From NCBI GenBank assembly GCA_018693795.1, contig JABHMJ010000022.1, forward strand, positions 146-64,145: 64,000 nt of DNA. The letters run 5' to 3'. Positions 46,886 to 57,464 of this stretch are shown here, one piece after another (within the stretch, counting starts at the first letter, position 1; the number at the start of each line of letters is the position of its first letter). Origin of the DNA: Candidatus Woesearchaeota archaeon. Its GTDB lineage: Archaea; Nanobdellota; Nanobdellia; SCGC-AAA011-G17; PNOQ01. Below the pieces are notes generated by a model. The model had not been told where the DNA came from, did no database searches, and saw only the letters and a program-made list of their open reading frames with translations. A program made the translations under genes and the position numbers.

Positions 46886-48319
46886 ATGAAACAAACAAAA
46901 TTTACAAAAATCATAACATTATTCGCAATTTTCTTAATCTTATTAAATACTGTTTCTGCGTTAAAAATTTCAACTAGTGAAATAAATGATGTAGACCAAG
47001 GGGATAATGTTTATTTCGACGTAGAAATTGGATTATCTAGGATAGACATAATTCAATTGGTAAATGATGATATTTTTATTAGACATGCAAAATTAACAAT
47101 AACTGGTCCAAACGGATTTTATGAAACTTGTTTTGTAAAAGATGGACAATTAGTTGACTGTGATTTAGATCTTTCTGTTAAAGAGGTTATTTCTCAAAAT
47201 AAAGATCAAATTACTTATCAATTTGTTTGGAACACTCTAAGTGGGATTGAAAAAGGAACATATAATGTTAATGGGGAATTATACTTAACAAAAACTCTTG
47301 ATGCTCAATATTCTTATTGCGATATATTAGTTGGCAGGTATCAAGCATTATCTAGTTTTGATCATGTTTTACTGTATGATTCAACTTTAGATTTAAATAA
47401 TGATAATATAGTTAATTTATCGGATTTGGTTATTTTCCAATCAAACCCTATGTACAGACAAGATGGGGAATTATTTGGAAGATTTCAAGGATTTTTTATG
47501 TTGAATAAAGAATATAGGGAGTATAATTCAATGCTGGATTTGAACGAAGATGGCATCATTAACTTATCCGATTTAGTATTATTATCTCAAGAATTGGGAA
47601 ATGATAAATTAGATTTAAATGGAGATGGGATAGAAAATTTATCAGATATTGTTATACTTGCACAATATTTTGAAACAGAAAATTTAGAGTTAGATTGGAA
47701 TAATGATGGAATTGTTAATCTTTCAGATATCATATTAATAACACAATATATGGAAAATGGCAATTTAGAACTTGATATGAATGGAGATGACATTTTCAAC
47801 TTAAGTGACATCGTTATAATTTCAGAAATATATTCTAATTCAAAAATTTCAACTGAGTATGAAAGATCTTTAGACTTGGATGGAAATGGAATTGTTAATC
47901 TTTCAGATATTATTATACTTGCACAAAACATTGAAGGCTCATTTGAATTAGAAGATCTAAATGAAGATGGAATACTTGATTTAACAGAAACCATCATTGC
48001 TGCCAATGGAATAAATAATGAGGAATGGTGTGCAATGCAATTAGAAAAGATAGATGGTCTTGTTACAATATTTAATTCAGAAGAACAATCATTTGAGATA
48101 ACTTCAAGATCTTCAAATGGAGGATCTAGAAATCATGATGATGACAACTCTGCTGGAGATGACTACCAAGATTATGAATCTGGAGATGAATATGAAGGAA
48201 CATATACTCCATTTACAGAAACAAACTATTTGATGGATAATTTGTGGTCTTTAGTATTTTATCTGATTGCCATTATTGTTTCATTTAGTGGAATAGTGAT
48301 AGTTTCAAAAAAACTTTAA
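46886..48319 (+). CDS. secreted cell-surface protein with about eight dockerin-like Ca-binding repeats and C-terminal TM anchor
   Basis: Signal peptide, then repeated DLNxDGxxNLSDxVxLxQ motifs (dockerin type I-like), an acidic/Ser-rich linker, a TM helix and an SKKL tail. Confidence 0.6.
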   Translation: MKQTKFTKIITLFAIFLILLNTVSALKISTSEINDVDQGDNVYFDVEIGLSRIDIIQLVNDDIFIRHAKLTITGPNGFYETCFVKDGQLVDCDLDLSVKEVISQNKDQITYQFVWNTLSGIEKGTYNVNGELYLTKTLDAQYSYCDILVGRYQALSSFDHVLLYDSTLDLNNDNIVNLSDLVIFQSNPMYRQDGELFGRFQGFFMLNKEYREYNSMLDLNEDGIINLSDLVLLSQELGNDKLDLNGDGIENLSDIVILAQYFETENLELDWNNDGIVNLSDIILITQYMENGNLELDMNGDDIFNLSDIVIISEIYSNSKISTEYERSLDLDGNGIVNLSDIIILAQNIEGSFELEDLNEDGILDLTETIIAANGINNEEWCAMQLEKIDGLVTIFNSEEQSFEITSRSSNGGSRNHDDDNSAGDDYQDYESGDEYEGTYTPFTETNYLMDNLWSLVFYLIAIIVSFSGIVIVSKKL

Positions 48320-48325
48320 TTTTTT

Positions 48326-48640
48326 TTATTTTTCACAAATTACTTGCATTGGAAACGATTCAGTAAAATCGCAAATTAAAGATTCGCATTTTAAGCAAGG
48401 ATCGCCCTGATAACAAATTGGTTCATCTTCAAAGTTATAACAATTAAAACTTTCTGGACAATTATTCATATAATCACATTTTATTGTTTCTGGACATTCT
48501 TCAAAATTACAATTATTATTTGAATCTCTTGAAACAAATGTTCCATCTTGACACATCTTTGCTTCTTCGGTACAAGCTAAAGGTTCACCCATACAAGAAG
48601 AAATCAATACTGTTGCTAAAATTAATAATAATATTTTCAT
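48326..48640 (-). CDS. Cys-rich secreted lipoprotein-like protein (104 aa, about 17 Cys)
   Basis: Lipobox-like LISSC followed by CxxC/CNFEEC-type Cys spacing. Confidence 0.45.
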   Translation of the reverse strand: MKILLLILATVLISSCMGEPLACTEEAKMCQDGTFVSRDSNNNCNFEECPETIKCDYMNNCPESFNCYNFEDEPICYQGDPCLKCESLICDFTESFPMQVICEK

Positions 48641-49167
48641 TTTTCTATTTTTTTATAGCCAATCCACATTATTATGATTAGCTCAACTAATATTACTAAG
48701 GCTCTCCATATCTTGCTTAAATCTGAGAATGCACGTATTGTTCCATAAAATAAAACAATTAAACCTGCAAACATTAAACCTGCACCCATATAATCTGTTT
48801 TAAAATACAACCCTAGAATTACTAATATTAGGCCAATTGGGGCTATGATAAAAAATAAGTTTCTATTGTATTTTTCTTTTGCATCTTGATATTCGTTATT
48901 ACAAAAATCACATTCTTTGAATTCATTACATCCTTGATCATTTGTTTCTAGAATTGGATTTCCATTTTCTTCTAAACAACTTTGATAATCTGGACCATAG
49001 TCAAAATTACATTCTTCAATTGGTTTTACATTTGTTGGGAAAAAACGTTGTCCACTACAAAAATCATCGTAATCTGGAGAAGAATAAATTGCATCAACAA
49101 ATAACCCTACAAATAGTGGGAGAAGTATTGCTATCCCCAAAATCATGGCTAATTTTTTTGGATCCAT
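48637..49167 (-). CDS. Cys-rich membrane protein (paralogous Cys domain plus 2 C-terminal TM)
   Basis: N-terminal TM; extracellular Cys-rich domain sharing an ECNF motif with the adjacent gene; 4-nt overlap coupling. Confidence 0.45.
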   Translation of the reverse strand: MDPKKLAMILGIAILLPLFVGLFVDAIYSSPDYDDFCSGQRFFPTNVKPIEECNFDYGPDYQSCLEENGNPILETNDQGCNEFKECDFCNNEYQDAKEKYNRNLFFIIAPIGLILVILGLYFKTDYMGAGLMFAGLIVLFYGTIRAFSDLSKIWRALVILVELIIIMWIGYKKIEK

Positions 49168-49303
49168 AATTTAATGTTTATTTTTTTATTTATATAATTT
49201 GGGGTGTGGCCCAAATTGGGCCAAGAAAATATTAAACGGAGGTAATCCTTTATTGTGTGTGACCCTTTTTAAATAAAATGAAGATAAAATATGGAAGTGA
49301 GTT

Positions 49304-49531
49304 CTATATATTTAGCAAGATAGAATAATTATCTGGAGCGAATTCTGCTACAAATCTCTCTGCATTTGCTTTTGCTTGTTTCAATAATTCAGAATTATTA
49401 TCCGTTATTGTTTCAGTAACAAGATACTGCATTCCACCAAAAAGTTTTATATCTTCTATAAACTCTTTTCTTGAAATTGTATGCATCCCGGATTCTGCTT
49501 TTAGAAAATTTAATTTATATTCTATTGTCAT
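49304..49531 (-). CDS. hypothetical protein (75 aa)
   Basis: ORF only. Confidence 0.3.
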   Translation of the reverse strand: MTIEYKLNFLKAESGMHTISRKEFIEDIKLFGGMQYLVTETITDNNSELLKQAKANAERFVAEFAPDNYSILLNI

Positions 49532-49567
49532 AATCTTGGTATAGATAATTTATTTATAATTCTTATG

Positions 49568-50281
49568 TTACTTCTTTCTGAAAGATTTAGAAATTGAATC
49601 ATTCCAAAATTCAGGCAACCCTGCTTTCATTAAACCTTCAAATTCATCGGATATTACATAAAAATGTTCTTTTTTGTTTTTTATTTCAGAAAAAGAATTT
49701 CCAACTTTAATAAACATGTCTTGCAAAGCTTTTCTTTCGAATCTCGTTTGAAGTAAAGATGGTTCTTTGAATAATAAAATATCACAAAGTCTTAAAACAT
49801 TTAGATCTAGCATTGCAGAGTTTTGGGTTATGAATATCAATGAAAGATTTTTATGTCTTGCTATTGCCAATAGCTCTGCTAAATCTTTATTTGATTGTTT
49901 CATGGATGATCTTGAAGAAAACGAAATCCCCGCCTCATCAATTAATACTAAAGAATTATTTGGTATTTCTGATATGCTTTCTACATTTTGTACCCAATAA
50001 GGTATTTTTGAATTATTGAATCCAATTACAAAAATATTTTTATCCAATATTGCTGCAGTTTCAACTAATTTCATTCCTAACGCAGTTTTTCCTGCGCCCC
50101 TTCTTCCGACTATTAGCATAATTAAAGAGTGATCCCTAAATTGTGTCATGAATCCTTCAAAATCCCCATTAACAATTTGATTTACTTCAAAATTTGATAA
50201 AGCAGAATTAAACCTATCTTTTTGTGTTATTTTATGTTTCTCTTCTTTTTGTTTTTTATATTTTTTAATTGGATTGAACAT
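49568..50281 (-). CDS. P-loop NTPase (AAA+/IstB-DnaC-like minimal ATPase), unknown function
   Basis: Walker A VGRRGAGKT, Walker B LVLIDEAG, and sensor-like ITQN. Confidence 0.55.
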   Translation of the reverse strand: MFNPIKKYKKQKEEKHKITQKDRFNSALSNFEVNQIVNGDFEGFMTQFRDHSLIMLIVGRRGAGKTALGMKLVETAAILDKNIFVIGFNNSKIPYWVQNVESISEIPNNSLVLIDEAGISFSSRSSMKQSNKDLAELLAIARHKNLSLIFITQNSAMLDLNVLRLCDILLFKEPSLLQTRFERKALQDMFIKVGNSFSEIKNKKEHFYVISDEFEGLMKAGLPEFWNDSISKSFRKK

Positions 50282-50323: not shown

Positions 50324-50647
50324 CTATAAGTCTATTTTCTTAGCATACTCGCCGATTACTGGTATGTATTTTTTCTCACCAGATAATGCATACGTCCAGT
50401 TGTATACCCATGCAACAAATACTAAAACTCTTAACCCTAAAGCAATTACCCACCCTAGGATTGGAATCCATCCAAGAATAGTTAATATTATCGAAGACAA
50501 TACTGCGAAGAGGAATATCACAAGACTTTGCTTTGCATAGTGCATTACATACTTATCTTTCTTCCATAACAATAATGCAGTAATAAATCCAAATATACTA
50601 AAAAAAGTTGTTATAAATGCATTAGTCCTTGATTTCTTTCTAATCAT
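50324..50647 (-). CDS. small membrane protein (DUF4870-like)
   Basis: 2-3 TM helices with a YAKQS motif. Confidence 0.35.
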   Translation of the reverse strand: MIRKKSRTNAFITTFFSIFGFITALLLWKKDKYVMHYAKQSLVIFLFAVLSSIILTILGWIPILGWVIALGLRVLVFVAWVYNWTYALSGEKKYIPVIGEYAKKIDL

Positions 50648-50698: not shown

Positions 50699-51352
50699 TT
50701 AAGAGGCTAATTCGGCCTCAATTATTTGTTCAAAAACACTAAATGGTTGCGCACCACTCACTAAAATTCCATTAACAAATGTTGCTGGAGTTCCACGTAC
50801 ACCTGCTGCAGAACCATCTTTTATGTCATTTTGAATTTCATCATAGTATTTTCCAGAATCTAAACATACATCAAACTCATTTTGGTTTAAACCTAAATTT
50901 GCTGCGTATTGTTTAAATGAGGTTATTCCTCCAGTTACACCAGATTCAAATAACATATTGTGCATTTCATAATATTTCTCTTGATCTCCAGCACACTCTG
51001 CTGATTCAGCTGCCTTTTGAGCGTTTGTATGTAAACTTAGTGGAAAGTCCCTATAGACGAATTTTACTTTTCCAGTTTCAACATATTTTTCTTTTATTTG
51101 TTGTAATGCATCAGTATAAAATCTTCCACAAAATGGGCATTCATAATCACTGAATTCAATTATTGTTACCGGGGCATTTGCGTCTCCTAAAAAATCATCA
51201 TCATCTGCAGAAACCTGTATCCGCGTAGGTTGTCCTGTTGCTTGTCCTGTTGGAGGACTATTTTGTAAATCAGTTTTTGAATTAGAAATGAAACTAATTA
51301 TCAATACAATAGCCAAAACTCCTATAATTATTTTTAATCCTTTGTTTTCCAT
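50699..51352 (-). CDS. DsbA-like thiol:disulfide oxidoreductase (thioredoxin fold, membrane-anchored)
   Basis: N-terminal TM, CPFC active site and a helical insert. Confidence 0.75.
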   Translation of the reverse strand: MENKGLKIIIGVLAIVLIISFISNSKTDLQNSPPTGQATGQPTRIQVSADDDDFLGDANAPVTIIEFSDYECPFCGRFYTDALQQIKEKYVETGKVKFVYRDFPLSLHTNAQKAAESAECAGDQEKYYEMHNMLFESGVTGGITSFKQYAANLGLNQNEFDVCLDSGKYYDEIQNDIKDGSAAGVRGTPATFVNGILVSGAQPFSVFEQIIEAELAS

Positions 51353-51421
51353 ATTTCATCAACTCCTATTTATTTTTTTTAAAATTTTATTTAAAAAGAT
51401 TAAGGAGGATAAATCATTTAT

Positions 51422-53593
51422 CTATAATTTTTTCTTTCTTAATGCTAAAGAATTTAATATTACACTTACTGAAGACATTGCCATTGCTCCTCCGGCAATC
51501 ATTGGGTTTAACAACCATCCGGTAAATGAATAAAACACACCGGCTGCAACTGGAATTCCAAGTGTATTATAAAATAGTGCCCAAAACATGTTTTGTTTTA
51601 TTTTTGACATTGTTAATTTACTTAATCTTATTGCCTTTCCAACATCTAGCAAATTATTTCTCATTAATACAATGTTTCCTGTTTCCATTGCTACATCGGT
51701 TCCAGAACCCATTGCAATACCAATATCTGCTTGTGCTAAGGCTGGAGCATCATTTATTCCATCTCCCACCATTGCAACTTTTCCGTATTTTTGTAATTTT
51801 TTTACATAATTTGATTTATCTTCAGGGAGAACTTCAGCAAAAACATTTTTTATGCCTGCTTTTTTTGCAATTGCATTTGCAGTTCTTTTGTTATCTCCAG
51901 TAATCATGTAAACTTTTATACCCAATTTTTCCAAATATTTTATTGCAGTTGGAGATGTTTTCTTTATTGTATCTGCTACTGCGACCATGCCAATTAGTTT
52001 TTTTCCTTCAGCCAAAAACATTACAGTTTTTCCTTGTTCTTCTAAAGTCTCAAATTCATTCGAAATAATTTTTATTTTCAAATCTTTCATTAATTTTTGA
52101 TTTCCAAAATTGTATGTTTTTTTACCAATGTTTGCTTTAATTCCATGCCCAGGAATTGCATTGAAATTTGAAACTTTTTTTAGAATAATTTTGCTTTGCT
52201 TTGCTTTTTCAACTATCGCATCTGCCAATGGGTGTTCTGAATTTTTTTCTATGCTTCCTGCAATCATCAATAGTTCTTTTTCTGTTTTGTCTTTTGAAAT
52301 TATATCCGTCACTTCTGGAATTCCAGTTGTTATTGTTCCCGTTTTATCAAAAATTACATATTTTATTTTATGTGCAGTTTCTAAAGCATCTCCGCCTTTT
52401 ATCAAAATACCTTCCTTTGCTCCCTTACCCGTTCCAACCATTATTGCAGTTGGTGTTGCTAATCCTAAGGCACACGGACAGGCTATTACTAAAACCGCTA
52501 TGGCCGCAGTTAATGCAAACGTTAGGTCCGCATTAAACATTAATTTCCATGAAATGAATGTTATTATTGCAACTAATATTACTATTGGCACAAAATAAGA
52601 AGAAACCATATCTGCAAACCTTTGAATTGGTGCTTTTTTTCCTTGTGCTTCTTCTATTAATTTTATTATATGGGCAAGAGTTGTATTTTTTCCTATTTTT
52701 GTTGCTTTAAATTTGAATGAACCTTGTTTATTTATCGTCCCACCAATTACTCCATCTCCTTTCTTTTTTTCTATTGGCATACTCTCTCCAGTCACCATAG
52801 ATTCATTTATACTTGAAAATCCTTCTGTGATTATTCCATCTACTGGAATTTTTGCACCTGGTTTTATTAAGATTATATCTCCCAATTCTATCTCTTTTAA
52901 TGGAATTACTATTTCTTTTCCTTTTCTAATTACTATTGCTTTCTTTGGGGCCAGTTCCATTAATTTTTTTATTGCTCCAGAGGTTTTTGATTTTGCTAAT
53001 GCTTCTAAATATTTTCCCAATAAAACCAATGTGATTAAGACTGCAGATGCTTCAAAGTATTGTGCGTGACTTGAAGTAAATAATACTGCATATACACTAA
53101 AAAAGTATGCGGCACTTGTACCAATTGCAATTAGACTATCCATATTTGCACTTTTGTTTTTTAATGCTGCCCAAGATCCTTTGTAGAATTGGGCCCCAGC
53201 AATAAATTGTACTGGAGTCGCTAAGATCCACAATATATATTCTTCAAAAGGCATGGATATTCCTAACCACATAAATACCATTCCAATTACAAAGGTTGGG
53301 ATTGCAAATAATGAACTAAAGAAGAATAAGTTTCTTAGTTTTTTAATTTCTTTTTTTTGAGATTGAAGATCAATCCCATCTTTAAGTTGGGATGCACCAT
53401 ACCCTCTTTTTTTAATTATGCCTATTAAATTTTCTTCTTTTATTTTTTTTGGATCGTATTCTATTGTTGCTTTTTCAGTTGTTAAATTAACATTTGCGTT
53501 GATAACTCCTTTCTCTTTTTTTAATCCTTTTTCTATTACAGTAACGCAACTAGCACAATGCATTCCCTTAATTTGTAATTCTGTTTTTTTCAT
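51422..53593 (-). CDS. copA: copper-translocating P1B-type ATPase
   Basis: N-terminal HMA (GMHCASC), TM CPC motif, DKTGT phosphorylation site, and GDGxND. Confidence 0.95.
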   Translation of the reverse strand: MKKTELQIKGMHCASCVTVIEKGLKKEKGVINANVNLTTEKATIEYDPKKIKEENLIGIIKKRGYGASQLKDGIDLQSQKKEIKKLRNLFFFSSLFAIPTFVIGMVFMWLGISMPFEEYILWILATPVQFIAGAQFYKGSWAALKNKSANMDSLIAIGTSAAYFFSVYAVLFTSSHAQYFEASAVLITLVLLGKYLEALAKSKTSGAIKKLMELAPKKAIVIRKGKEIVIPLKEIELGDIILIKPGAKIPVDGIITEGFSSINESMVTGESMPIEKKKGDGVIGGTINKQGSFKFKATKIGKNTTLAHIIKLIEEAQGKKAPIQRFADMVSSYFVPIVILVAIITFISWKLMFNADLTFALTAAIAVLVIACPCALGLATPTAIMVGTGKGAKEGILIKGGDALETAHKIKYVIFDKTGTITTGIPEVTDIISKDKTEKELLMIAGSIEKNSEHPLADAIVEKAKQSKIILKKVSNFNAIPGHGIKANIGKKTYNFGNQKLMKDLKIKIISNEFETLEEQGKTVMFLAEGKKLIGMVAVADTIKKTSPTAIKYLEKLGIKVYMITGDNKRTANAIAKKAGIKNVFAEVLPEDKSNYVKKLQKYGKVAMVGDGINDAPALAQADIGIAMGSGTDVAMETGNIVLMRNNLLDVGKAIRLSKLTMSKIKQNMFWALFYNTLGIPVAAGVFYSFTGWLLNPMIAGGAMAMSSVSVILNSLALRKKKL

Positions 53594-53628
53594 TGTTATT
53601 TATGTCCTTCTGTTATTTATATCTTTAT

Positions 53629-54084
53629 TCAAAATCTGAAAGCCCCATTTGCTAATTCAGATTCACTTATTAAAATATGGTCTCCTTCAATTTTATTTTC
53701 TAAAAATGATGGCCAACATCCTCCTCCACGGTTTTCTGTACCAATAGAATCTATACTAAATACTCTTCCACAATTATTGCATACCATGTCTGTACCCTCT
53801 TGTCTATACCCCTTATATCCACCACAAACATCACAAGCATCGAAGGCCGATCTTATTTCCCCATTAGATCCTTTAACTAAAAAATATTTTACTTCTTTCC
53901 CATTTACATCAAATGAATAGTGTTTTGCAGTTTCTGAAATTTCAGAAATCGGTATTTTTATGAAAGCATCATTTGAAATTATATTTCCTGTTGGGTTTCC
54001 CTTTTGAGTAGGATTACTAGTAGTGCACCCACTCACCAAAATAATTGTTAATAAAATTATTCCATATATTATTTTATTGTTCAT
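53629..54084 (-). CDS. DUF2318-like Cys-rich lipoprotein (metal-binding, permease-associated)
   Basis: Start set at MNNK with lipobox VSGC. Contains FDACDVCGGY...CNNCG motifs. Confidence 0.5.
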   Translation of the reverse strand: MNNKIIYGIILLTIILVSGCTTSNPTQKGNPTGNIISNDAFIKIPISEISETAKHYSFDVNGKEVKYFLVKGSNGEIRSAFDACDVCGGYKGYRQEGTDMVCNNCGRVFSIDSIGTENRGGGCWPSFLENKIEGDHILISESELANGAFRF

Positions 54085-54085
54085 C

Positions 54086-55507
54086 TTATCCTCCACACCC
54101 GCATCCCCCGCCAGATGCCCCGCATGAGCCACCTTGAGGAACTTGAATATCATTTATTTTATTTGAATCTAAATTTGTTAAATCATCTACCACTACAAAA
54201 GTCCCTGGGATCATTCCCATCCAACAACTCCAAGAGATTACCCCCGTAGTCGTAGGCGTAAATTCTATTGTTTGTTCTCCAGGGGTTACTTTAAAATTTA
54301 AATTGTATTTTGGAACTTGGATTGCATTGTTACATCCATTTATTTCTTTTCCATCTATTATCCATTTTACTGGAATTCCTTTTTGTAAAACAAATTTATC
54401 TGGAGACCAACCATATCTATTCACTTCCATTCTAATCTCTTGATAATTCCCATTTAGGGTTGCTAATTCATTTGAAGGCAAATTTTCATAATTTGTTGAT
54501 TTTACTGTTGCGCCAACAATTAATGAATCATAGTCATACCCTGAACCCGTTAGAGATAGCCCCCGATTAATCATGACTATTCCAAGAATCATGACCACTA
54601 CTGCAGAGACTTTTAGGATTTTTTTTGTTGATGATGCACTAATTATCGATGTCATTATCCCAAAACCCAGTAAAACTGGTAGGGTTCCTAATCCAAATGC
54701 AGTCAAACTTAATGCTCCTTGCAACATACTTCCTGTGCCTGCCGCATAAATGTACATAGCTTGCAACGGACCGCATGCGATCATTAGACTATTCAATAAT
54801 CCAATTTTTAATGGACTTCTTGATTTTTGAGTTTCTTTCGAAGCAAATTTATTTAAGAAACTTGGAGATTTAATTCTTATTTTTCTTAACCAAGGAAATA
54901 TATTTAACATGTTCAATCCAAAAATTACTAGGAAAAGTCCTGCTAATATTGCAGCATATCCTCTTAAATTTGGGGTGAACGCAATAAACGATCCAAACAG
55001 TCCAAATATTCCCCCAATTATTGCATACCCTGTTGTTTTTCCTAAACCATATTCTAGGTGTGCACGAGTTTTCGATTTTGCTTTTGTAGCATAAGAGATT
55101 ACAAATCCCCCACACATGCCAATACAATGAAATCCAGTTAATAACCCAAGTACAAATAACAAAGCTAAAGAGGTTTCCTGAGATAAATCTGGGAAAAAAT
55201 CAAATCCCCCTGTATTTTCTAAAATTAGGTATGCACCAATCAATAAGAATGCTATTGATATTGCAATTGTAAGATATAACCTACTTTTTTTTGGTTTTAT
55301 TTCACTTGGAGAGTATCCAGATTCATCAATTATATTAAATATTTTTTCTTTAGATATTTTTTCTTCATCGAATCTAATGTTTAATTTACTTGACTCATAA
55401 TTTGCTTTTACTTCTTGAATCCCTTCTTTTTTTTCTAATGCTCTTTCTAATATTTTTTCACAGCTCCCGCAAGTCATCCCAGAAATATATATTATTTTTT
55501 CAGTCAT
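54086..55507 (-). CDS. fusion protein: N-terminal HMA domain, polytopic permease (DsbD_2/TauE-like, HCIGMCGG motif), C-terminal cupredoxin-like domain with Cys/Gly tail
   Basis: GMTCGSC HMA motif; about 8 TM helices; C-terminal beta-rich domain (TTGVISWSCWMGMIPG) ending SCGASGGGCGCGG. Confidence 0.6.
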   Translation of the reverse strand: MTEKIIYISGMTCGSCEKILERALEKKEGIQEVKANYESSKLNIRFDEEKISKEKIFNIIDESGYSPSEIKPKKSRLYLTIAISIAFLLIGAYLILENTGGFDFFPDLSQETSLALLFVLGLLTGFHCIGMCGGFVISYATKAKSKTRAHLEYGLGKTTGYAIIGGIFGLFGSFIAFTPNLRGYAAILAGLFLVIFGLNMLNIFPWLRKIRIKSPSFLNKFASKETQKSRSPLKIGLLNSLMIACGPLQAMYIYAAGTGSMLQGALSLTAFGLGTLPVLLGFGIMTSIISASSTKKILKVSAVVVMILGIVMINRGLSLTGSGYDYDSLIVGATVKSTNYENLPSNELATLNGNYQEIRMEVNRYGWSPDKFVLQKGIPVKWIIDGKEINGCNNAIQVPKYNLNFKVTPGEQTIEFTPTTTGVISWSCWMGMIPGTFVVVDDLTNLDSNKINDIQVPQGGSCGASGGGCGCGG

Positions 55508-55707
55508 ATTTTATATCCCTCTGCCATTATTTTCTTTTTTATTTTATCCACCATATCATTAGATCCATCAAATTCAATAGAAACCCTTTCTTTTTCATGG
55601 TCTGGGGTTGCAGTTTTTACTCCAGAGATTTCTTCTAATTCTTCTTTCAAAAGTATTTCGCAACTTTTGCAATGCATGCCTTTTACTTTTATTTTTTCTA
55701 AAACCAT
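55504..55707 (-). CDS. copZ: copper chaperone CopZ (HMA domain)
   Basis: 67 aa with GMHCKSC. Confidence 0.85.
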   Translation of the reverse strand: MVLEKIKVKGMHCKSCEILLKEELEEISGVKTATPDHEKERVSIEFDGSNDMVDKIKKKIMAEGYKI

Positions 55708-55775
55708 TATCTATTTGTAGGTGAAACACCTTAAAAGGAATTGTATGAAACTAGTTTCATTTTATAAATAAATTG

Positions 55776-56234
55776 TTAATTATGTTTAAGAATTACTACG
55801 TTTGTCATTCCTCTTCGTTTTCTTTCTATCTTTCCTTTTCCTTCCAATCTATCTAAAATTCTTGTAATCTTAACTTTGTTCATGTTTGTTTTCTCTGTTA
55901 ATTCAGATTGAAATATTGTTCCTTCTGCATTTAATATTTCATTTAATAATATTTTTTCATCTTCTGAAAATTTACTTAAATCTAGTTCCTTGGATTTTTC
56001 TTTACTTTTCTCTTTTGCAAAGAAAATTAAATATAATCCAGTTAAAATAATTACAATCATTATTCCTAAACTTATATTTGTTTGAAATCTTATTGAAGTC
56101 CACATTGCACATTCAGACCCATGAGAGCAAGTAGTATTAACAATTTCAGTTAGAGCTTTGTTAAAAGCACTAATTATGAATCCGATTAATACAGCGATTC
56201 CAATTATTATATATCCAGTAGTTTTGTTTTTCAT
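55776..56234 (-). CDS. membrane-anchored winged-helix transcriptional regulator (paralog of 57051..57464)
   Basis: Two N-terminal TM helices flank a CSHGSEC loop; C-terminal wHTH (KVKITRILDRLEGKGKIERK). Confidence 0.55.
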   Translation of the reverse strand: MKNKTTGYIIIGIAVLIGFIISAFNKALTEIVNTTCSHGSECAMWTSIRFQTNISLGIMIVIILTGLYLIFFAKEKSKEKSKELDLSKFSEDEKILLNEILNAEGTIFQSELTEKTNMNKVKITRILDRLEGKGKIERKRRGMTNVVILKHN

Positions 56235-56383
56235 GGTTTTAATGCAAAATGGAGGGTATAAAAGATTTATGATTTGTTGATTTCAAAAATTTGTTTGTTT
56301 GTTTCAATAATTTTCAACTGGTTTCAATAAAATAGTTATCTGGTTTCACCCATTATACTGGATACATTTGGAGGAAAATAAAA

Positions 56384-56758
56384 ATGACAAATAAAAAATT
56401 AGGAATTTTTGCCATCGTGCTTGTGTCTCTAGTTGCTTTTGGAGGACTTGTATCTGCATATGGCAGGGGGATAGATAATCCAGAAAGAGGATTGTACCAT
56501 GAACAAATGGAAGAAATAATTGAAGAAGGAAACTATGAAGATTTAGTTAACTTTAGAAACGAAATAGGTTATGATGTTGCTCGAAGAGTTGTAGATGAAG
56601 AAAGCTTTCAACAACTAAAAGAAAGACATACATATATGGAAGAAAATGGAATTGAACCTGGTCAAGGTCAGAGATTAAAAGATGGATCTGGAAATAAGAT
56701 GGGCCAACGAATGGGACAAGAAAATTATAACCAAATGGGGGAATGCCCTTACCAATAA
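56384..56758 (+). CDS. secreted hypothetical protein (signal peptide)
   Basis: MTNKKLGIFAIVLVSLVAFGGLVSA signal, then an acidic and Gly/Gln-rich mature part. Confidence 0.4.
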   Translation: MTNKKLGIFAIVLVSLVAFGGLVSAYGRGIDNPERGLYHEQMEEIIEEGNYEDLVNFRNEIGYDVARRVVDEESFQQLKERHTYMEENGIEPGQGQRLKDGSGNKMGQRMGQENYNQMGECPYQ

Positions 56759-56794
56759 TTTTTTTTTCTTTTTTTTCATAACATTTAAAAGCAA

Positions 56795-57061
56795 ATGGAA
56801 TTCAATATTGATAATATGCCAATGGGACAAGTAATTAGGCCAATGGGACTTCACATACAGTATATGTGGGTATTTCAATTAATTATATTACTATTATTTT
56901 TCTTGATAATCTGGTGGGTGTTGAGGGGAAACAATAATTATGGATATAAATCTGATGATTCTGCAATTGATATTTTAAATAAGAGATTGGCTAGTGGCGA
57001 AATTACAAAAAAAGAATATGAAGAAATAAAAAGAGACATAAACACAAAAGATGGAGATTAA
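56795..57061 (+). CDS. membrane protein with C-terminal SHOCT domain
   Basis: TM helix plus RLASGEITKKEYEEIKRDI (SHOCT signature). Confidence 0.5.
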   Translation: MEFNIDNMPMGQVIRPMGLHIQYMWVFQLIILLLFFLIIWWVLRGNNNYGYKSDDSAIDILNKRLASGEITKKEYEEIKRDINTKDGD

Positions 57062-57464
57062 TAATAAAAAATTAATTATTGGATTCGGGTTGGTTTTTTT
57101 ATTAGGGGTTGCTTTCTCTATCGTAAATGGAGAGTATACCGACTCTACAAATGAACAATTGCCTTTGATTGTTTATGCAATTTCTTTTTTATCTGTAATT
57201 GTTGGGGCGTTCTTAGTCATAATGTTTCAAGCAAAAATAAATAAAATTCAACTAGAAAGAGTTTTGAAGATATTACATAGGGAAGAGAGGGTCATTGTAA
57301 AAATTCTTTTAGACAATAATAACTCAATTGAACAAAATAAATTAGTAGTGCTGTCTGGATTTAATAAGGTTCAAACGTTTAGAATTACTAGAAAACTTGA
57401 AGAAAGGGGAGTTATTGAAAAAAAACATTTAGGAAATACAAATCTCATTATTTTAAAAATTTAG
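57051..57464 (+). CDS. membrane-anchored winged-helix transcriptional regulator (paralog of 55776..56234)
   Basis: 2 TM helices plus wHTH (KVQTFRITRKLEERGVIEKK). Confidence 0.55.
   Translation: MEINNKKLIIGFGLVFLLGVAFSIVNGEYTDSTNEQLPLIVYAISFLSVIVGAFLVIMFQAKINKIQLERVLKILHREERVIVKILLDNNNSIEQNKLVVLSGFNKVQTFRITRKLEERGVIEKKHLGNTNLIILKI

What the first reader, a model, noticed from the sequence alone, without database searches (positions are those of the whole stretch)
50699..56234. Copper/heavy-metal resistance island containing an HMA-permease-cupredoxin fusion
Six co-directional genes: a DsbA-like oxidoreductase; a P1B ATPase CopA; a DUF2318-like Cys-rich lipoprotein; a 473-aa fusion of an HMA domain, an ~8-TM permease with an HCIGMCGG motif and a C-terminal cupredoxin-like domain ending in a Cys/Gly tail; CopZ; and a membrane-anchored wHTH regulator. 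The three-part fusion and the DUF2318 partner (normally linked to FTR1-type iron permeases) are an unusual combination. The cluster is likely accessory for a reduced-genome archaeon.
Basis: partly seen in the sequence, partly recalled or inferred. Interest (0 to 1): 0.55.

Follow-up and report, generated by a model that had tools for sequence, protein, structure and literature searches.

The report
Conserved DPANN archaeal copper-handling operon
This is a copper-defence gene cluster common in small DPANN archaea; its odd member is an untested membrane protein with copper-binding sites inside the cell, within the membrane and outside it, and the cluster has its own membrane-bound sensor and a conserved DNA switch.

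Summary
The six co-directional minus-strand genes exist as described, and every predicted domain was confirmed. They are a TM-anchored wHTH regulator, CopZ, an HMA–DsbD_2–cupredoxin fusion, a DUF2318/FtrD-like lipoprotein, a P1B-1 CopA and a DsbA/ScsC-like thioredoxin.

The fusion is neither an artefact nor rare. At least 556 species genomes carry it, mostly DPANN archaea and a few bacteria. CopA is adjacent in 44 of 47 loci with enough flanking sequence.

Its C-terminal domain is a homologue of the pneumococcal Cu(I) chaperone CupA, with all four ligands (C…CxMxM) invariant. Unlike CupA, it is predicted to lie outside the cell: seven TM helices, positive-inside rule, and a LysM fusion in Methylocapsa. 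The HMA CxxC, the TM1 motif H-C-x2-M-C-G and the TM4 motif C-G-P are also invariant.

New here:
- A palindrome, TGAAACTAGTTTCA, next to the TATA box co-occurs with the regulator across relatives (32/37 versus 3/38 loci).
- The regulator has a conserved external C-x5-C-x-M loop.
- The DUF2318 domain is modelled as a Rieske-like fold with four Cys ligands.

Composition gives no sign of recent horizontal transfer.

Best reading: a core DPANN Cu(I) detoxification operon in which the fusion relays Cu(I) across or at the membrane alongside CopA. A DsbD/Scs-like electron relay is the main rival. The biochemical function is untested.

The parts
55776..56234 (-). Membrane-anchored wHTH regulator (152 aa). 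It has two N-terminal TM helices, an external loop with conserved C36-x5-C42-x-M44, and a cytoplasmic DUF7343/MarR-type winged helix.
   Evidence: Pfam DUF7343 at 36.9 bits and MarR at 29.2 bits, both above cut-off. The loop Cys/Cys/Met are conserved at 80% or more in 39 homologues taken from related loci. A homologue lies upstream of the operon in 23 of 47 loci.
55746..55759 (-). Perfect palindrome TGAAAC-TA-GTTTCA, the candidate operator of the regulator. It lies 9 nt upstream of the TATA box of the copZ promoter.
   Evidence: It is the only match in the 64-kb window. It is present (at most 1 mismatch) upstream of the operon in 32 of 37 related loci with a regulator homologue, against 3 of 38 without; Fisher p = 1.4e-12. 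Only one match lies elsewhere in 949 kb of loci. The promoter layout is conserved across 38 loci.
55729..55738 (-). TATA-like box (ccttttaagg; family consensus cTTATAAgg) of the copZ-fusion-DUF2318-copA transcription unit. Its centre is about 26 nt from the copZ ATG, so the leader is short or absent.
   Evidence: The promoter alignment of 38 loci shows a conserved TTATAA at a fixed distance from the palindrome. Sequence read.
55722..55727 (-). Third half-site, GTTTCA, 2-3 nt downstream of the TATA box.
   Evidence: Conserved in the 60% consensus of the promoter alignment. This is one of only two places in the window with three such hexamers within 60 nt.
55504..55707 (-). CopZ-type cytosolic Cu(I) chaperone (67 aa, GMHCKSC motif). 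Its stop overlaps the fusion gene's start by 4 nt.
   Evidence: Pfam HMA, E = 2e-13. Coordinates. A stand-alone HMA gene lies upstream of the fusion in at least 26 of 47 loci.
54086..55507 (-). 473-aa HMA - 7-TM DsbD_2 - CupA-like fusion protein. Predicted topology is N-terminus inside, C-terminus outside.
   Evidence: Domains. AF2 model with mean pLDDT 74.8 and seven TM helices. K+R count is 12 in the predicted inside loops and 1 in the outside loops. Invariant residues.
55313..55492 (-). Cytoplasmic HMA domain of the fusion (residues 6-65, GMTCGSC).
   Evidence: Pfam HMA, E = 4e-13. C13 and C16 are invariant in 58 homologues.
54575..55159 (-). DsbD_2 (UreH-like) six-helix membrane core (residues 117-311), preceded by an extra TM helix (residues 76-99). 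It carries the invariant TM1 motif H127-C128-x2-M131-C132-G133 and the invariant TM4 motif C245-G246-P247.
   Evidence: PF13386 at 157.6 bits; PF02683 DsbD_TM at 26.5 bits, just under its 27.1-bit cut-off. Invariant columns. Helices. No solved relative is detectable by sequence.
54191..54457 (-). Extracytoplasmic CupA-like cupredoxin domain (residues 351-439) with the ligand set C392 ... C428-W-M430-G-M432.
   Evidence: phmmer match to CupA (2mry/4f2e) at E = 2.4e-12 and to the pneumococcal CopA metal-binding domain (4f2f) at E = 2e-5, with the ligands aligned. Foldseek to 4f2e gives TM-score 0.91 and rmsd 2.1 A. The four ligands are invariant.
54089..54136 (-). Flexible C-terminal Cys/Gly tail (...GGSCGASGGGCGCGG).
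   Evidence: C469 and C471 are conserved at 90% or more. pLDDT is below 50 for residues 447-473.
53629..54084 (-). DUF2318/FtrD-like lipoprotein (about 151 aa from the internal ATG; the longest ORF starts at 54153). It has a lipobox-like VSGC and the motifs C106-x2-C109-x14-C124-x2-C127 plus G-C146-W-P.
   Evidence: PF10080, E = 1.6e-26. The five Cys are invariant in 49 homologues. The AF2 core has pLDDT above 90, and the best PDB fold matches are Rieske ferredoxins (E = 1.8e-4, TM-score about 0.58). There is no twin-arginine signal (sequence).
51422..53593 (-). CopA, a P1B-1 Cu(I)-exporting ATPase with one N-terminal HMA domain.
   Evidence: TIGR01511 at 662 bits against a 397-bit cut-off. 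The sequence shows CPC, N-x6-YN-x4-P, P-x6-M-x2-SS and DKTGT. Adjacent to the fusion in 44 of 47 loci.
50699..51352 (-). Membrane-anchored extracytoplasmic DsbA/ScsC-like thioredoxin-fold protein (CPFC active site).
   Evidence: Thioredoxin_4, E = 4e-35. PDB relatives include actinobacterial DsbA (E = 1e-22), BdbD, and ScsC 'suppressor of copper sensitivity' 4gxz (E = 4.9e-11), 6nen and 4xvw. The CPxC motif is conserved. Present in 13 of 47 loci.

Best explanation
This is a vertically maintained, copper-regulated Cu(I) detoxification operon typical of DPANN archaea.

Shown by the evidence:
- CopZ and a P1B-1 CopA form the standard route of cytosolic buffering plus ATP-driven export.
- The fusion protein has invariant soft-metal ligands at three levels: an HMA CxxC in the cytoplasm; H-C-x2-M-C on TM1 facing C-G-P on TM4 in the membrane; and a CupA-type C...CxMxM site plus a CGC tail on the outer face.
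- The operon carries a conserved palindrome and half-site around its TATA box. These co-occur with a membrane-anchored wHTH regulator that has a conserved external Cys/Cys/Met loop.

Inferred:
- The fusion is a ligand-exchange path for Cu(I) (or Ag(I)) across or at the membrane. It takes Cu(I) from CopZ on the inside and presents it on the outside, and/or receives Cu(I) leaving CopA. It would therefore act as a chaperone-coupled secondary exporter, or as an outer-face acceptor working beside CopA.
- The Cys4 Rieske-fold DUF2318 lipoprotein and the ScsC-like thioredoxin are optional outer-face partners. They bind the exported Cu(I) and/or keep the exposed thiols in the correct redox state.
- The regulator senses external copper through its loop and controls pre-initiation complex assembly at the copZ promoter, most likely as a repressor that is released by copper.
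For: Copper context:
- CopA carries the full P1B-1 signature, and a CopZ is present.
- The fusion is adjacent to CopA in 44 of 47 loci, across lineages sharing only 46-72% identity.
- Bacterial members sit next to CusA/CusB-type RND genes (Methylocapsa) or next to CopA plus DUF2318 (locus L059).
- COG2836 and DUF2318 proteins were predicted to be CsoR (copper-induced) regulon members in Firmicutes (PMC4938975).

Metal relay rather than redox relay:
- H127 and M131 are invariant beside the TM cysteines, as are M430 and M432, which correspond to the CupA S2 site.
- The HMA motif is the typical GMTCxxC.
- The extracytoplasmic CupA-like domain is duplicated in tandem, and the HMA domain is duplicated in some members, as metal-binding domains are in Cu-ATPases.
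- CupA homology is supported by sequence and by fold, with the ligands aligned.

Topology:
- Seven TM helices in the model.
- K+R count of 12 inside against 1 outside.
- A C-terminal LysM domain in the Methylocapsa homologue.
- Pro/Thr-rich linkers between tandem CupA-like domains.

Regulation:
- Palindrome and regulator co-occur in 32/37 loci against 3/38, p = 1.4e-12.
- The layout palindrome - 9 nt - TATA - half-site is conserved.
- The regulator loop C-x5-C-x-M is conserved.
Against: - No experiment exists for any member of the fusion family, so the direction of transfer and even the substrate are inferred.
- The protein has no obvious energy-coupling module, and CopA already exports Cu(I), so a second exporter looks redundant.
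- The membrane core belongs to the DsbD/CcdA superfamily. One Cys on TM1 (C132, in xCGG) and one on TM4 (C245, in xCGP) sit in pseudo-symmetric positions, which is the signature of thiol-disulfide electron transporters.
- Thioredoxin-fold partners recur in these operons: the DsbA/ScsC-like protein here, and VKOR plus a thioredoxin in locus L002. This points to redox chemistry.
- The AF2 model is only moderately confident (mean pLDDT 74.8). I could not read its coordinates to check that the TM ligands converge.
- The sign of regulation is not determined. The palindrome lies upstream of the TATA box, which would also fit an activator.
Confidence: 0.5

Rival explanations
1. DsbD/ScsB-like electron conduit. 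The DsbD_2 core passes reducing equivalents from the cytoplasm to the outer face through its TM1/TM4 cysteines. The CupA-like domain plays the part of DsbD-alpha or acts as a cupric reductase. The ScsC-like thioredoxin and the Cys-rich DUF2318 protein are the clients. Together they repair copper-catalysed disulfides or reduce Cu(II) outside the cell.
For: - DsbD_2 membership, and a near-threshold DsbD_TM match.
- Invariant Cys on TM1 and TM4.
- A DsbA/ScsC-like gene in the operon here and in 13 of 47 loci.
- VKOR plus a thioredoxin inside the operon in L002, and glutaredoxin, thioredoxin reductase and thioredoxin directly after CopA in another relative.
- The Scs system links a DsbD-type protein, a DsbA-like protein and copper tolerance (PMC10907172, PMC8900818).
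- CupA reduces Cu(II) in vitro (PMC7558416).
Against: - Invariant His and Met beside the TM cysteines, and the invariant CxMxM Met pair, serve no purpose in thiol-disulfide exchange.
- The cytoplasmic entry domain is a metallochaperone fold with GMTCxxC, not a thioredoxin-interaction surface.
- The DsbA-like partner is absent from most loci (34 of 47), whereas CopA is almost always present.
- Tandem duplication of the outer domain is typical of metal-binding domains.
Confidence: 0.25
2. Copper uptake or retrieval by a MerT/MerP-style inward thiol relay. The outer CupA-like domain captures Cu(I) at the cell surface and passes it through the membrane cysteines to the HMA domain and CopZ. The purpose would be to supply a cuproprotein, or to clear the surface and hand the copper to CopA.
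For: - The architecture (outer metal-binding domain, Cys-bearing TM helices, cytoplasmic HMA) mirrors MerP-MerT-NmerA, as known from the literature. The HMA domains give weak NCBIfam matches to the MerTP model.
- The family occurs in copper-hungry methanotrophs (Methylocapsa, Methylotetracoccus).
- DsbD_2 is also named the UreH-like domain, after a nickel uptake protein (my own knowledge, not tested here).
Against: - The tight, nearly universal linkage is to an exporter, CopA, and to Cus-type efflux genes in Methylocapsa.
- Family members are predicted to be copper-induced through CsoR in Firmicutes, which is the wrong sign for an uptake system.
- No cuproenzyme gene was seen in the surveyed neighbourhoods.
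- MerTP and MerT models score far below their cut-offs.
Confidence: 0.1
3. The system handles another thiophilic metal (Hg(II), Cd(II), Zn(II)) rather than copper.
For: HMA domains and Cys-rich sites bind several soft metals. The NCBIfam matches of the HMA domains include MerP and ZntA models.
Against: - The ATPase has the Cu(I)/Ag(I)-specific P1B-1 motifs, CPC, YN and MxxSS, and passes TIGR01511. ZntA and Cd models score well below their cut-offs.
- The outer domain keeps the exact Cu(I) ligand set of CupA.
- No merA or merB gene is present in the region.
- Ag(I) cannot be separated from Cu(I) on this evidence.
Confidence: 0.05
4. One reading: a rare, horizontally acquired accessory island whose three-part fusion may be an assembly or frameshift artefact.
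For: - The position of the operon differs between relatives.
- A Zot-like ATPase and small Cys-rich orphan genes lie just downstream of it.
- The DUF2318 and DsbA-like genes are variably present, even among close relatives.
Against: - An identical 473-aa protein and hundreds of full-length homologues exist, in at least 556 species genomes.
- Composition is ordinary.
- The operon order and the promoter architecture are conserved across DPANN phyla.
Confidence: 0.03

Closest known systems
CupA / CopA metal-binding domain of Streptococcus pneumoniae (PDB 4F2E, 2MRY, 4F2F)
   Same: Both are homologous cupredoxin-fold domains (E = 2.4e-12; TM-score 0.91). [quoted passage not shown]
   Different: - CupA is a single-TM, cytoplasm-facing chaperone that feeds a cupredoxin-type metal-binding domain on CopA.
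- Here the domain follows a 7-TM DsbD_2 core and is predicted to be extracytoplasmic.
- The local CopA has an ordinary HMA domain, and a classical CopZ is also present.
- A review describes CupA as confined to a few streptococci (PMC7558416), whereas this domain has 2175 representatives of 50%-identity clusters.
ScsABCD (suppressor of copper sensitivity) and DsbD/CcdA membrane electron transporters
   Same: Both pair a DsbD-superfamily membrane protein carrying a Cys on TM1 and on TM4 with a DsbA-like (Thioredoxin_4) partner in a copper-tolerance context. The local DsbA-like protein matches ScsC structures at E = 5e-11.
   Different: - The core here belongs to DsbD_2 (PF13386), not DsbD_TM; PF02683 scores just under its cut-off.
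- It has extra invariant His, Met and Cys on TM1.
- It has an HMA domain inside and a CupA-like domain outside, in place of thioredoxin-like and Ig-like periplasmic domains.
- Electron transfer has not been tested.
HMA + DsbD_2 + DUF2318 proteins (COG2836) and stand-alone DUF2318 proteins of the predicted CsoR regulon in gut Firmicutes (PMC4938975)
   Same: The same three domain families (HMA, DsbD_2, DUF2318) are functionally linked, in a copper-responsive context.
   Different: - In Firmicutes DUF2318 is fused to the DsbD_2 core. Here the fused outer domain is CupA-like and DUF2318 is a separate lipoprotein.
- The regulator is different: CsoR there, a TM-anchored wHTH here.
- Neither version has been characterised biochemically.
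FetMP-FetABCDEF (Campylobacter) / FtrABCD iron uptake systems
   Same: Both contain a DUF2318 domain with two CxxC motifs, together with extracytoplasmic thioredoxins and a membrane permease. A redox-support role has been proposed for DUF2318 (PMC10783030).
   Different: - No FTR1/FetM permease, P19/FetP or ABC transporter genes were found in the operon, or within +/-8 kb in three relatives.
- The partners here are copper efflux genes.
- FetA is an 8-TM protein with a YHS domain, whereas this one is a small lipoprotein.
MerT/MerP mercury relay
   Same: The logic is the same: paired thiols on an outer HMA-type binding protein, on a TM helix, and on a cytoplasmic HMA domain exchange a thiophilic metal by ligand swapping (established knowledge).
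   Different: The membrane core is unrelated (3-TM MerT against 7-TM DsbD_2). The Mer models score far below their cut-offs. The metal and the direction are probably different.

Membership tests
P1B-1 Cu(I)-exporting ATPase (CopA) | The copper-ATPase family model scores above its curated cut-off, and DKTGT, TM CPC, N-x6-YN-x4-P and P-x6-M-x2-SS are present. | tested here: met
   TIGR01511 scores 662 bits against a 397-bit cut-off. All the motifs can be read in the translation. The E. coli CopA equivalog model is not reached (659 bits against 1316), so this is a family member rather than an orthologue-level match.
CopZ/Atx1 HMA metallochaperone | A roughly 70-aa HMA fold with an MxCxxC motif. 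| tested here: met
   Pfam HMA scores 50.9 bits against a 24.8-bit cut-off, and the motif is GMHCKSC. The NCBIfam CopZ exception models are below cut-off (48 against 91), so membership holds at domain level only.
CupA-type cupredoxin Cu(I) chaperone | Cupredoxin fold homologous to CupA. | tested here: met
   E = 2.4e-12 by sequence. Foldseek gives TM-score 0.91 and rmsd 2.1 A to 4f2e.
CupA-type cupredoxin Cu(I) chaperone | [quoted passage not shown] | tested here: met
   C392, C428, M430 and M432 align with the CupA ligands and are invariant in 58 homologues. The motif definition is taken from PMC5552934.
CupA-type cupredoxin Cu(I) chaperone | Faces the cytoplasm and delivers Cu(I) to a cupredoxin-type N-terminal metal-binding domain on CopA. 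| tested here: not met
   The domain is predicted to be extracytoplasmic, from 7 TM helices, K+R of 12 inside against 1 outside, and the LysM fusion in a homologue. The local CopA has an HMA N-terminus, not a cupredoxin. Topology is predicted, not measured.
DsbD_2 / UreH-like membrane domain (PF13386) | The Pfam model scores above its gathering cut-off. | tested here: met
   157.6 bits against a 24.9-bit cut-off, covering residues 117-311.
DsbD/CcdA thiol-disulfide electron transporter | DsbD_TM (PF02683) membership. | tested here: not met
   26.5 bits against a 27.1-bit cut-off, and the match covers only residues 143-315. No CcdA or DsbD chain was found in the PDB by profile search.
DsbD/CcdA thiol-disulfide electron transporter | One essential Cys on TM1 and one on TM4. 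| tested here: met
   C132 (MCGG) and C245 (ACGP) are invariant and lie in helices 114-142 and 232-258 of the model.
DsbD/CcdA thiol-disulfide electron transporter | Thioredoxin-dependent transfer of electrons across the membrane. | not testable with these tools
   This needs biochemistry.
TauE/SafE sulfite exporter (the name PGAP gives to homologues) | A match to the TauE family model. | tested here: not met
   No TauE (PF01925) hit was reported at E <= 0.01 for the fusion. The database name is therefore not supported at family level.
DUF2318 / FtrD-like (PF10080) | The Pfam model scores above cut-off, and the conserved CxxC...CxxC motifs are present. | tested here: met
   92.8 bits against a 26.3-bit cut-off. 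C-x2-C-x14-C-x2-C plus GCWP are invariant.
FTR1/P19-type iron uptake system (FetMP-FetABCDEF, FtrABCD) | An FTR1-family permease gene and a P19/FetP gene in the same cluster. | tested here: not met
   Neither is present among the operon genes or their neighbours in the window, nor within +/-8 kb in three relatives. The rest of the window was not scanned.
Rieske [2Fe-2S] protein | Rieske fold. | tested here: inconclusive
   The best PDB fold matches are Rieske ferredoxins, but only at E = 1.8e-4, TM-score about 0.58 and rmsd 4.5-5 A.
Rieske [2Fe-2S] protein | The ligand pattern Cys-x-His ... Cys-x2-His. | tested here: not met
   The ligand positions are Cys-x2-Cys ... Cys-x2-Cys, with no His. 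There is no twin-arginine signal, which a pre-folded Fe-S protein would need for export (sequence; inference).
ScsC / DsbA-like thioredoxin (Thioredoxin_4) | Thioredoxin_4 membership, a CxxC active site and an extracytoplasmic location. | tested here: met
   PF13462, E = 4e-35. The CPFC motif is conserved. An N-terminal hydrophobic anchor is present. ScsC structures match at E = 5e-11. Copper binding and the direction of redox activity were not tested.
MerT/MerP/MerTP mercury transport | The Mer family models score above cut-off. | tested here: not met
   MerTP scores 51 bits against 180, and MerP scores 28.8 against 92.55.
MarR-type winged-helix regulator | A wHTH domain model scores above cut-off. 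| tested here: met
   MarR scores 29.2 bits against 24.6, and DUF7343 scores 36.9 against 27.6. The two N-terminal TM helices and the metal-type loop are not features of classical MarR. DNA binding was not tested, but a co-occurring palindrome was found.

The most novel reading that the evidence does not exclude
The HMA-DsbD_2-CupA-like proteins are a previously unrecognised class of chaperone-coupled Cu(I) translocator built on the DsbD/LysE-type membrane scaffold. A cytosolic CopZ-like donor domain, an intramembrane His/Cys/Met site and an extracellular CupA-like acceptor domain sit in one polypeptide.

In DPANN archaea they are controlled by a new type of membrane-tethered, externally sensing copper regulator. 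This is a TM-wHTH protein with a C-x5-C-x-M loop that binds TGAAACTAGTTTCA next to the TATA box.
Probability: 0.35. Interest if true: 0.7.

Novelty: new variant of a known kind. Interest (0 to 1): 0.5.

Why it matters
Copper efflux operons are textbook material, but three of the six components here have no characterised counterpart.

- **The CupA fold.** It has been treated as a curiosity of a few streptococci that acts in the cytoplasm. Here it is widespread, often duplicated in tandem, and predicted to be extracytoplasmic on a DsbD-family membrane core.
- **The mechanistic question.** The architecture poses a clean, testable choice: does a DsbD-type scaffold move Cu(I) itself, or move electrons for copper defence?
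- **DUF2318.** The same analysis ties DUF2318, so far known only as an unexplained component of a pathogen iron-uptake cluster, to copper and thiol chemistry.
- **The regulator.** The conserved operator and the membrane-anchored regulator would give a defined regulatory element and a predicted environmental sensor in DPANN archaea. I found none described for them, and these organisms cannot yet be manipulated genetically.
- **Annotation.** The public label 'sulfite exporter TauE/SafE family protein' on hundreds of these genes is not supported by the family models.

Tried and rejected
- **Frameshift or assembly artefact:** rejected. An identical protein and hundreds of full-length homologues exist.
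- **Recent horizontal acquisition:** not supported. GC content and tetranucleotide usage are within the window's normal range.
- **TauE/SafE identity:** no Pfam hit.
- **Mercury system:** the Mer models score far below cut-off, and there is no merA.
- **FTR1/P19 iron system:** the partner genes are absent.
- **Solved structure for the membrane core:** none was found, by single sequence or by profile.
- **TATA box assignment:** I first took the TTTATAAA upstream of the palindrome to be the TATA box. The 38-locus promoter alignment showed that the conserved TATA box lies 9 nt downstream of the palindrome, so I corrected this.
- **Divergent gene cluster** (124-aa secreted protein, SHOCT protein, second TM-wHTH): tblastn shows that the 124-aa protein is not conserved next to cop operons (1 weak hit), and the SHOCT protein only occasionally (2 loci). 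These are not counted as part of the system.
- **Literature:** searches for DsbD_2/PF13386/COG2836, DUF7343, TauE+HMA+cupredoxin, and DPANN+copper found no functional study of the fusion or of the regulator.

Full report
**1. The observation**

The region 50699-56234 holds six co-directional minus-strand ORFs exactly as described. Profile searches confirm each predicted domain.

- ORF 55776-56234: a wHTH regulator (DUF7343 and MarR, both above cut-off).
- ORF 55504-55707: a 67-aa HMA protein (CopZ).
- ORF 54086-55507: a 473-aa protein with HMA (residues 6-65), DsbD_2/PF13386 (residues 117-311, E = 5e-46) and a weak Cupredoxin_1 match (residues 352-439, E = 1.6e-3).
- ORF 53629-54153: a DUF2318/FtrD-like protein (E = 1.6e-26).
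- ORF 51422-53593: a copper P-type ATPase (TIGR01511, 662 bits against a 397-bit cut-off).
- ORF 50699-51352: a Thioredoxin_4/DSBA protein.

The ATPase translation carries DKTGT, CPC, N-x6-YN-x4-P and P-x6-M-x2-SS. By established classification these define the Cu(I)/Ag(I)-specific P1B-1 subgroup.

Two details of the original description need correction. The structure model shows seven transmembrane helices, not about eight. The DUF2318 gene probably starts at the internal ATG near 54084, because conservation among 25 homologues begins there. That start removes the apparent 68-nt overlap with the fusion gene.

**2. The fusion is real and common**

The best 120 were nearly all full-length at 456-675 aa, and most carried the same precomputed Pfam architecture (P0028 lacks HMA). 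Where named, they came from Woesearchaeota, Nanoarchaeota and Altiarchaeota. Where a source names them, the commonest label, from NCBI and JGI, is 'sulfite exporter TauE/SafE family protein'.

The hits span DPANN phyla (Woese-, Nano-, Micr-, Aenigm-, Iain-, Undin- and Nanohaloarchaeota), Altiarchaeota and Methanoperedens. A few bacteria also carry it, including the cultured methanotroph Methylocapsa acidiphila B2.

No TauE Pfam match was reported for the protein, so the database name is not supported.

**3. Gene context is conserved**

Three relatives at 74%, 57% and 50% identity show the same core order: regulator, CopZ, fusion, DUF2318, CopA. The variations among them are as follows.

- In L002 the DUF2318 gene lies upstream, between the regulator and CopZ, and a VKOR and a thioredoxin are inserted.
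- L003 has a divergent MarR-type regulator in place of DUF7343.
- In the 74% relative, ArsR, glutaredoxin, thioredoxin reductase and thioredoxin follow CopA.

I counted neighbours by tblastn in the 47 species loci that have at least 3 kb upstream and 4 kb downstream of the fusion.

| Neighbour of the fusion | Loci (of 47) |
|---|---|
| CopA | 44 |
| Stand-alone CopZ | at least 26 |
| Regulator homologue | 23 |
| DUF2318 protein | 16 |
| DsbA-like protein | 13 |

The core pair is therefore fusion plus CopA. The DUF2318 and DsbA-like genes are frequent optional modules, and they vary even among the closest relatives.

Bacterial members keep the theme. In Methylocapsa the gene is divergent from a CusA/CusB-type RND pair. 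In a deltaproteobacterial genome it sits with CopA and a DUF2318 gene.

The island's composition is ordinary. Its GC is 0.316 against 0.301 +/- 0.011 for the window, and 13 of 59 equal-sized windows deviate more in tetranucleotide usage. In one relative the operon lies among ribosomal-protein and tRNA-synthetase genes. I see no evidence for recent horizontal acquisition.

**4. What the C-terminal domain is**

By sequence alone it matches the Streptococcus pneumoniae Cu(I) chaperone CupA (2MRY/4F2E) at E = 2.4e-12. It also matches the cupredoxin-type metal-binding domain of pneumococcal CopA (4F2F) at E = 2e-5. A family profile raises the CupA match to E = 2e-16.

The AlphaFold2 model has mean pLDDT 74.8, and 80-92 across most of this domain. 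Its best PDB match is 4F2E, at TM-score 0.91 and rmsd 2.1 A.

[quoted passage not shown] All four are invariant in 58 diverse homologues.

The domain alone finds 2175 representatives of 50%-identity clusters (986 at E <= 1e-10). These are proteins of about 120 to 770 aa carrying one to three copies. A 2020 review describes CupA as confined to a few streptococci.

**5. Topology**

- The model has helices at 76-99, 114-142, 146-174, 179-200, 232-258 (broken at C-G-P), 261-288 and 291-320.
- With the N-terminus inside, the loops carry 12 Lys+Arg on the inside and 1 on the outside.
- The Methylocapsa homologue ends in a LysM peptidoglycan-binding domain after the cupredoxin domain.
- Long archaeal members join a second complete CupA-like domain through Pro/Thr-rich linkers.

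All four observations place the HMA domain in the cytoplasm and the CupA-like domain outside. This is the opposite side from pneumococcal CupA.

**6. Ligands through the membrane**

The following are invariant in the family:

- C13 and C16, in the HMA motif GMTCxxC.
- H127, C128, M131, C132 and G133 on TM1.
- C245, G246 and P247 on TM4.
- The four CupA-type ligands.

C469 and C471 in the disordered C-terminal GGGCGCGG tail are conserved at 90% or more.

Read directly from the sequence, M-C132-G-G and A-C245-G-P occupy equivalent places after a shared G-L-L motif in TM1 and TM4. That gives one cysteine in each half of the 3+3 helix core, as in DsbD/CcdA. The His, the Met and the extra Cys on TM1 are additions.

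No solved structure is detectable for this core by sequence. The fold libraries that might have compared it were unavailable.

**7. The partners**

*DUF2318 protein.* It has a lipobox-like VSGC, and invariant C-x2-C-x14-C-x2-C and G-C-W-P motifs. Its model is confident in the core (pLDDT above 90). The nearest PDB folds are Rieske ferredoxins, at E = 1.8e-4 and TM-score about 0.58.

The spacing of its two metal-binding loops resembles the Rieske pattern, but all four ligands are Cys. The signal peptide has no twin-arginine motif. I therefore infer a thiolate metal site or a dithiol relay that is assembled outside the cell, rather than a pre-formed Fe-S cluster.

Two papers bear on DUF2318.
- In gut Firmicutes, proteins combining HMA, DsbD_2 and DUF2318, and stand-alone DUF2318 proteins, fall in the predicted CsoR copper regulon (PMC4938975).
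- In Campylobacter, the DUF2318+YHS membrane protein FetA is needed for FetMP-dependent iron uptake. Its role is unknown, and a redox-support role has been proposed (PMC10783030).

The DsbD_2-DUF2318 link is thus recurrent and already associated with copper. It is not an oddity of this genome.

*DsbA-like protein.* It has a CPFC active site. It matches actinobacterial DsbA, BdbD and the ScsC 'suppressor of copper sensitivity' proteins (4GXZ at E = 5e-11; also 6NEN and 4XVW). ScsC proteins act with the DsbD-type ScsB in copper tolerance, and at least one binds Cu(I) tightly (PMC10907172, PMC8900818).

**8. Regulation: a new observation**

The 152-aa regulator has two N-terminal TM helices. Between them is a loop in which C36, C42 and M44 are conserved at 80% or more across 39 homologues. 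A cytoplasmic winged helix follows.

In the 68-nt gap before copZ lies a perfect palindrome, TGAAACTAGTTTCA (55746-55759). It is the only match in the window.

Allowing at most one mismatch, the same palindrome lies upstream of the operon in 32 of 37 related loci that encode a regulator homologue. It does so in only 3 of 38 loci without one, and several of those three are cut off by a contig end. Only one match lies elsewhere in 949 kb of loci. Fisher's exact test gives p = 1.4e-12.

Aligning 38 promoters shows a fixed layout: palindrome, 9 nt, cTTATAAgg, 2-3 nt, a third half-site GTTTCA, then about 20-25 nt to the ATG. The regulator's sites therefore bracket the TATA box. This implies direct control of pre-initiation complex assembly, and the short spacing to the ATG implies a short or absent leader.

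A second cluster of three TGAAAC repeats, spaced 20-22 nt apart, lies upstream of the regulator gene (56301-56348). This cluster and the copZ promoter are the only places in the window with three such hexamers within 60 nt, which suggests autoregulation.

No paper in the searchable library mentions DUF7343 or PF24034.

**9. Mechanism**

That this is a copper (or silver) homeostasis operon is well supported; I put it at about 0.9. What the fusion does is inferred.

I favour a Cu(I) ligand-exchange path, at about 0.5. The route would be CopZ to the HMA domain, to the intramembrane His/Cys/Met site, to the outer CupA-like domain and tail. It would work beside CopA as a chaperone-coupled secondary exporter and/or as the outer-face acceptor for CopA. 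The reasons are:

- the invariant residues are metal ligands (His and Met as well as Cys);
- the soluble domains are metallochaperone folds;
- those domains are duplicated in some members, as in Cu-ATPases;
- the linkage is to efflux genes;
- relatives are predicted to be copper-induced.

The main rival, at about 0.25, is a DsbD/ScsB-type electron conduit serving the thioredoxin-fold and Cys-rich outer proteins. It is supported by the membrane family, by the TM1/TM4 cysteine pair, and by the recurring DsbA-like, VKOR and thioredoxin neighbours.

Uptake (about 0.1) and another thiophilic metal (about 0.05) are less likely. The artefact or rare-island reading is refuted.

**10. Comparison and novelty**

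The system works like a cop efflux operon combined with features of the pneumococcal CupA-CopA pair and of the Scs system. It is a member of neither.

- It fails the CupA criterion of cytoplasmic location and a cupredoxin-type partner domain on CopA.
- It falls just short of DsbD_TM membership.

It is best described as a new variant of a known kind. The variant is a widespread, database-visible but uncharacterised archaeal form of the copper efflux operon, with three untested components: the HMA-DsbD_2-CupA-like membrane protein, the Cys4 Rieske-fold lipoprotein, and the membrane-anchored regulator with its operator.

Interest is moderate (0.5). A metal-homeostasis specialist would find the extracytoplasmic, widespread CupA-like domain and the membrane-tethered sensor notable and directly testable. 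However, the overall function (copper defence) is expected, and the domain co-occurrence has been noted in passing before.

Noticed in passing
window 55722-55759 (minus strand), between the regulator gene and copZ: Perfect palindrome TGAAACTAGTTTCA, then 9 nt, a TATA-like box, and a third GTTTCA half-site. The same layout is conserved in 38 related loci and co-occurs with the TM-wHTH regulator (32/37 against 3/38 loci, p = 1.4e-12).
   Followed up: yes
window 56301-56348: Three TGAAAC repeats spaced 20-22 nt apart, one of them extended to the near-palindrome TGAAACCAGTTGAA. They lie in the divergent intergenic region upstream of the regulator gene. This is one of only two spots in the window with three such hexamers within 60 nt. 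It may mean autoregulation, or control of the divergent gene at 56384.
   Followed up: partly
window 56384-57464 (+ strand): A divergent three-gene set: a 124-aa secreted protein with a Met-rich C-terminus and no Pfam hit; an 88-aa SHOCT-domain membrane protein; and a second TM-anchored DUF7343 wHTH paralogue (137 aa) that lacks the Cys/Met loop. SHOCT homologues lie between the DUF2318 and DsbA-like genes in loci L012 and L035. The 124-aa protein is not conserved near cop operons.
   Followed up: partly
window 54089-54136 (fusion residues 458-473): A disordered C-terminal tail ending in GGGCGCGG, with C469 and C471 conserved at 90% or more across the family. Its role is unexplained. It could be a metal hand-off arm, but this was not tested.
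   Followed up: partly
homologues P0018, P0020, P0021 and others (590-640 aa); P0085 and P0116; locus L077 6836-8698: Family variants. Some have a second tandem CupA-like domain, with the full C..CxMxM motif, joined by Pro/Thr-rich linkers. Some have two N-terminal HMA domains. The Methylocapsa acidiphila B2 protein has a C-terminal LysM domain and sits next to CusA/CusB-type genes.
   Followed up: yes
locus L002 7514-9811; JGI contig of P0006 (no DNA available): Further thiol-redox genes are embedded in, or directly follow, the operon in relatives. L002 has a VKOR and a thioredoxin-like gene flanking the fusion. The P0006 contig has ArsR-type HTH, glutaredoxin, thioredoxin reductase and thioredoxin after CopA.
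   Followed up: no
database names of homologues: Homologues are widely labelled 'sulfite exporter TauE/SafE family protein', but the window protein gives no TauE Pfam match. The label appears to be a family-level misnomer.
   Followed up: yes
window 48326-50281 (minus strand): Immediately downstream of the island lie a 237-aa P-loop ATPase whose best match is the Zot family (E = 1e-6), a 75-aa orphan, and two small Cys-rich membrane or secreted proteins (104 and 176 aa) with no Pfam hits. This could be a remnant of a virus- or plasmid-like element. Composition is not unusual.
   Followed up: no
window 46886-48319 (+ strand): A 477-aa secreted protein with many dockerin-type (D-x-N-x-D-G-x-x-N-L-S-D) calcium-binding repeats and a C-terminal TM anchor (Dockerin_1, E = 1e-11).
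   Followed up: no
window 50324-50647 (minus strand): A DUF4870 small membrane protein (107 aa) lies directly downstream of the DsbA-like gene. It is not found near cop operons in the related loci (0 tblastn hits).
   Followed up: partly
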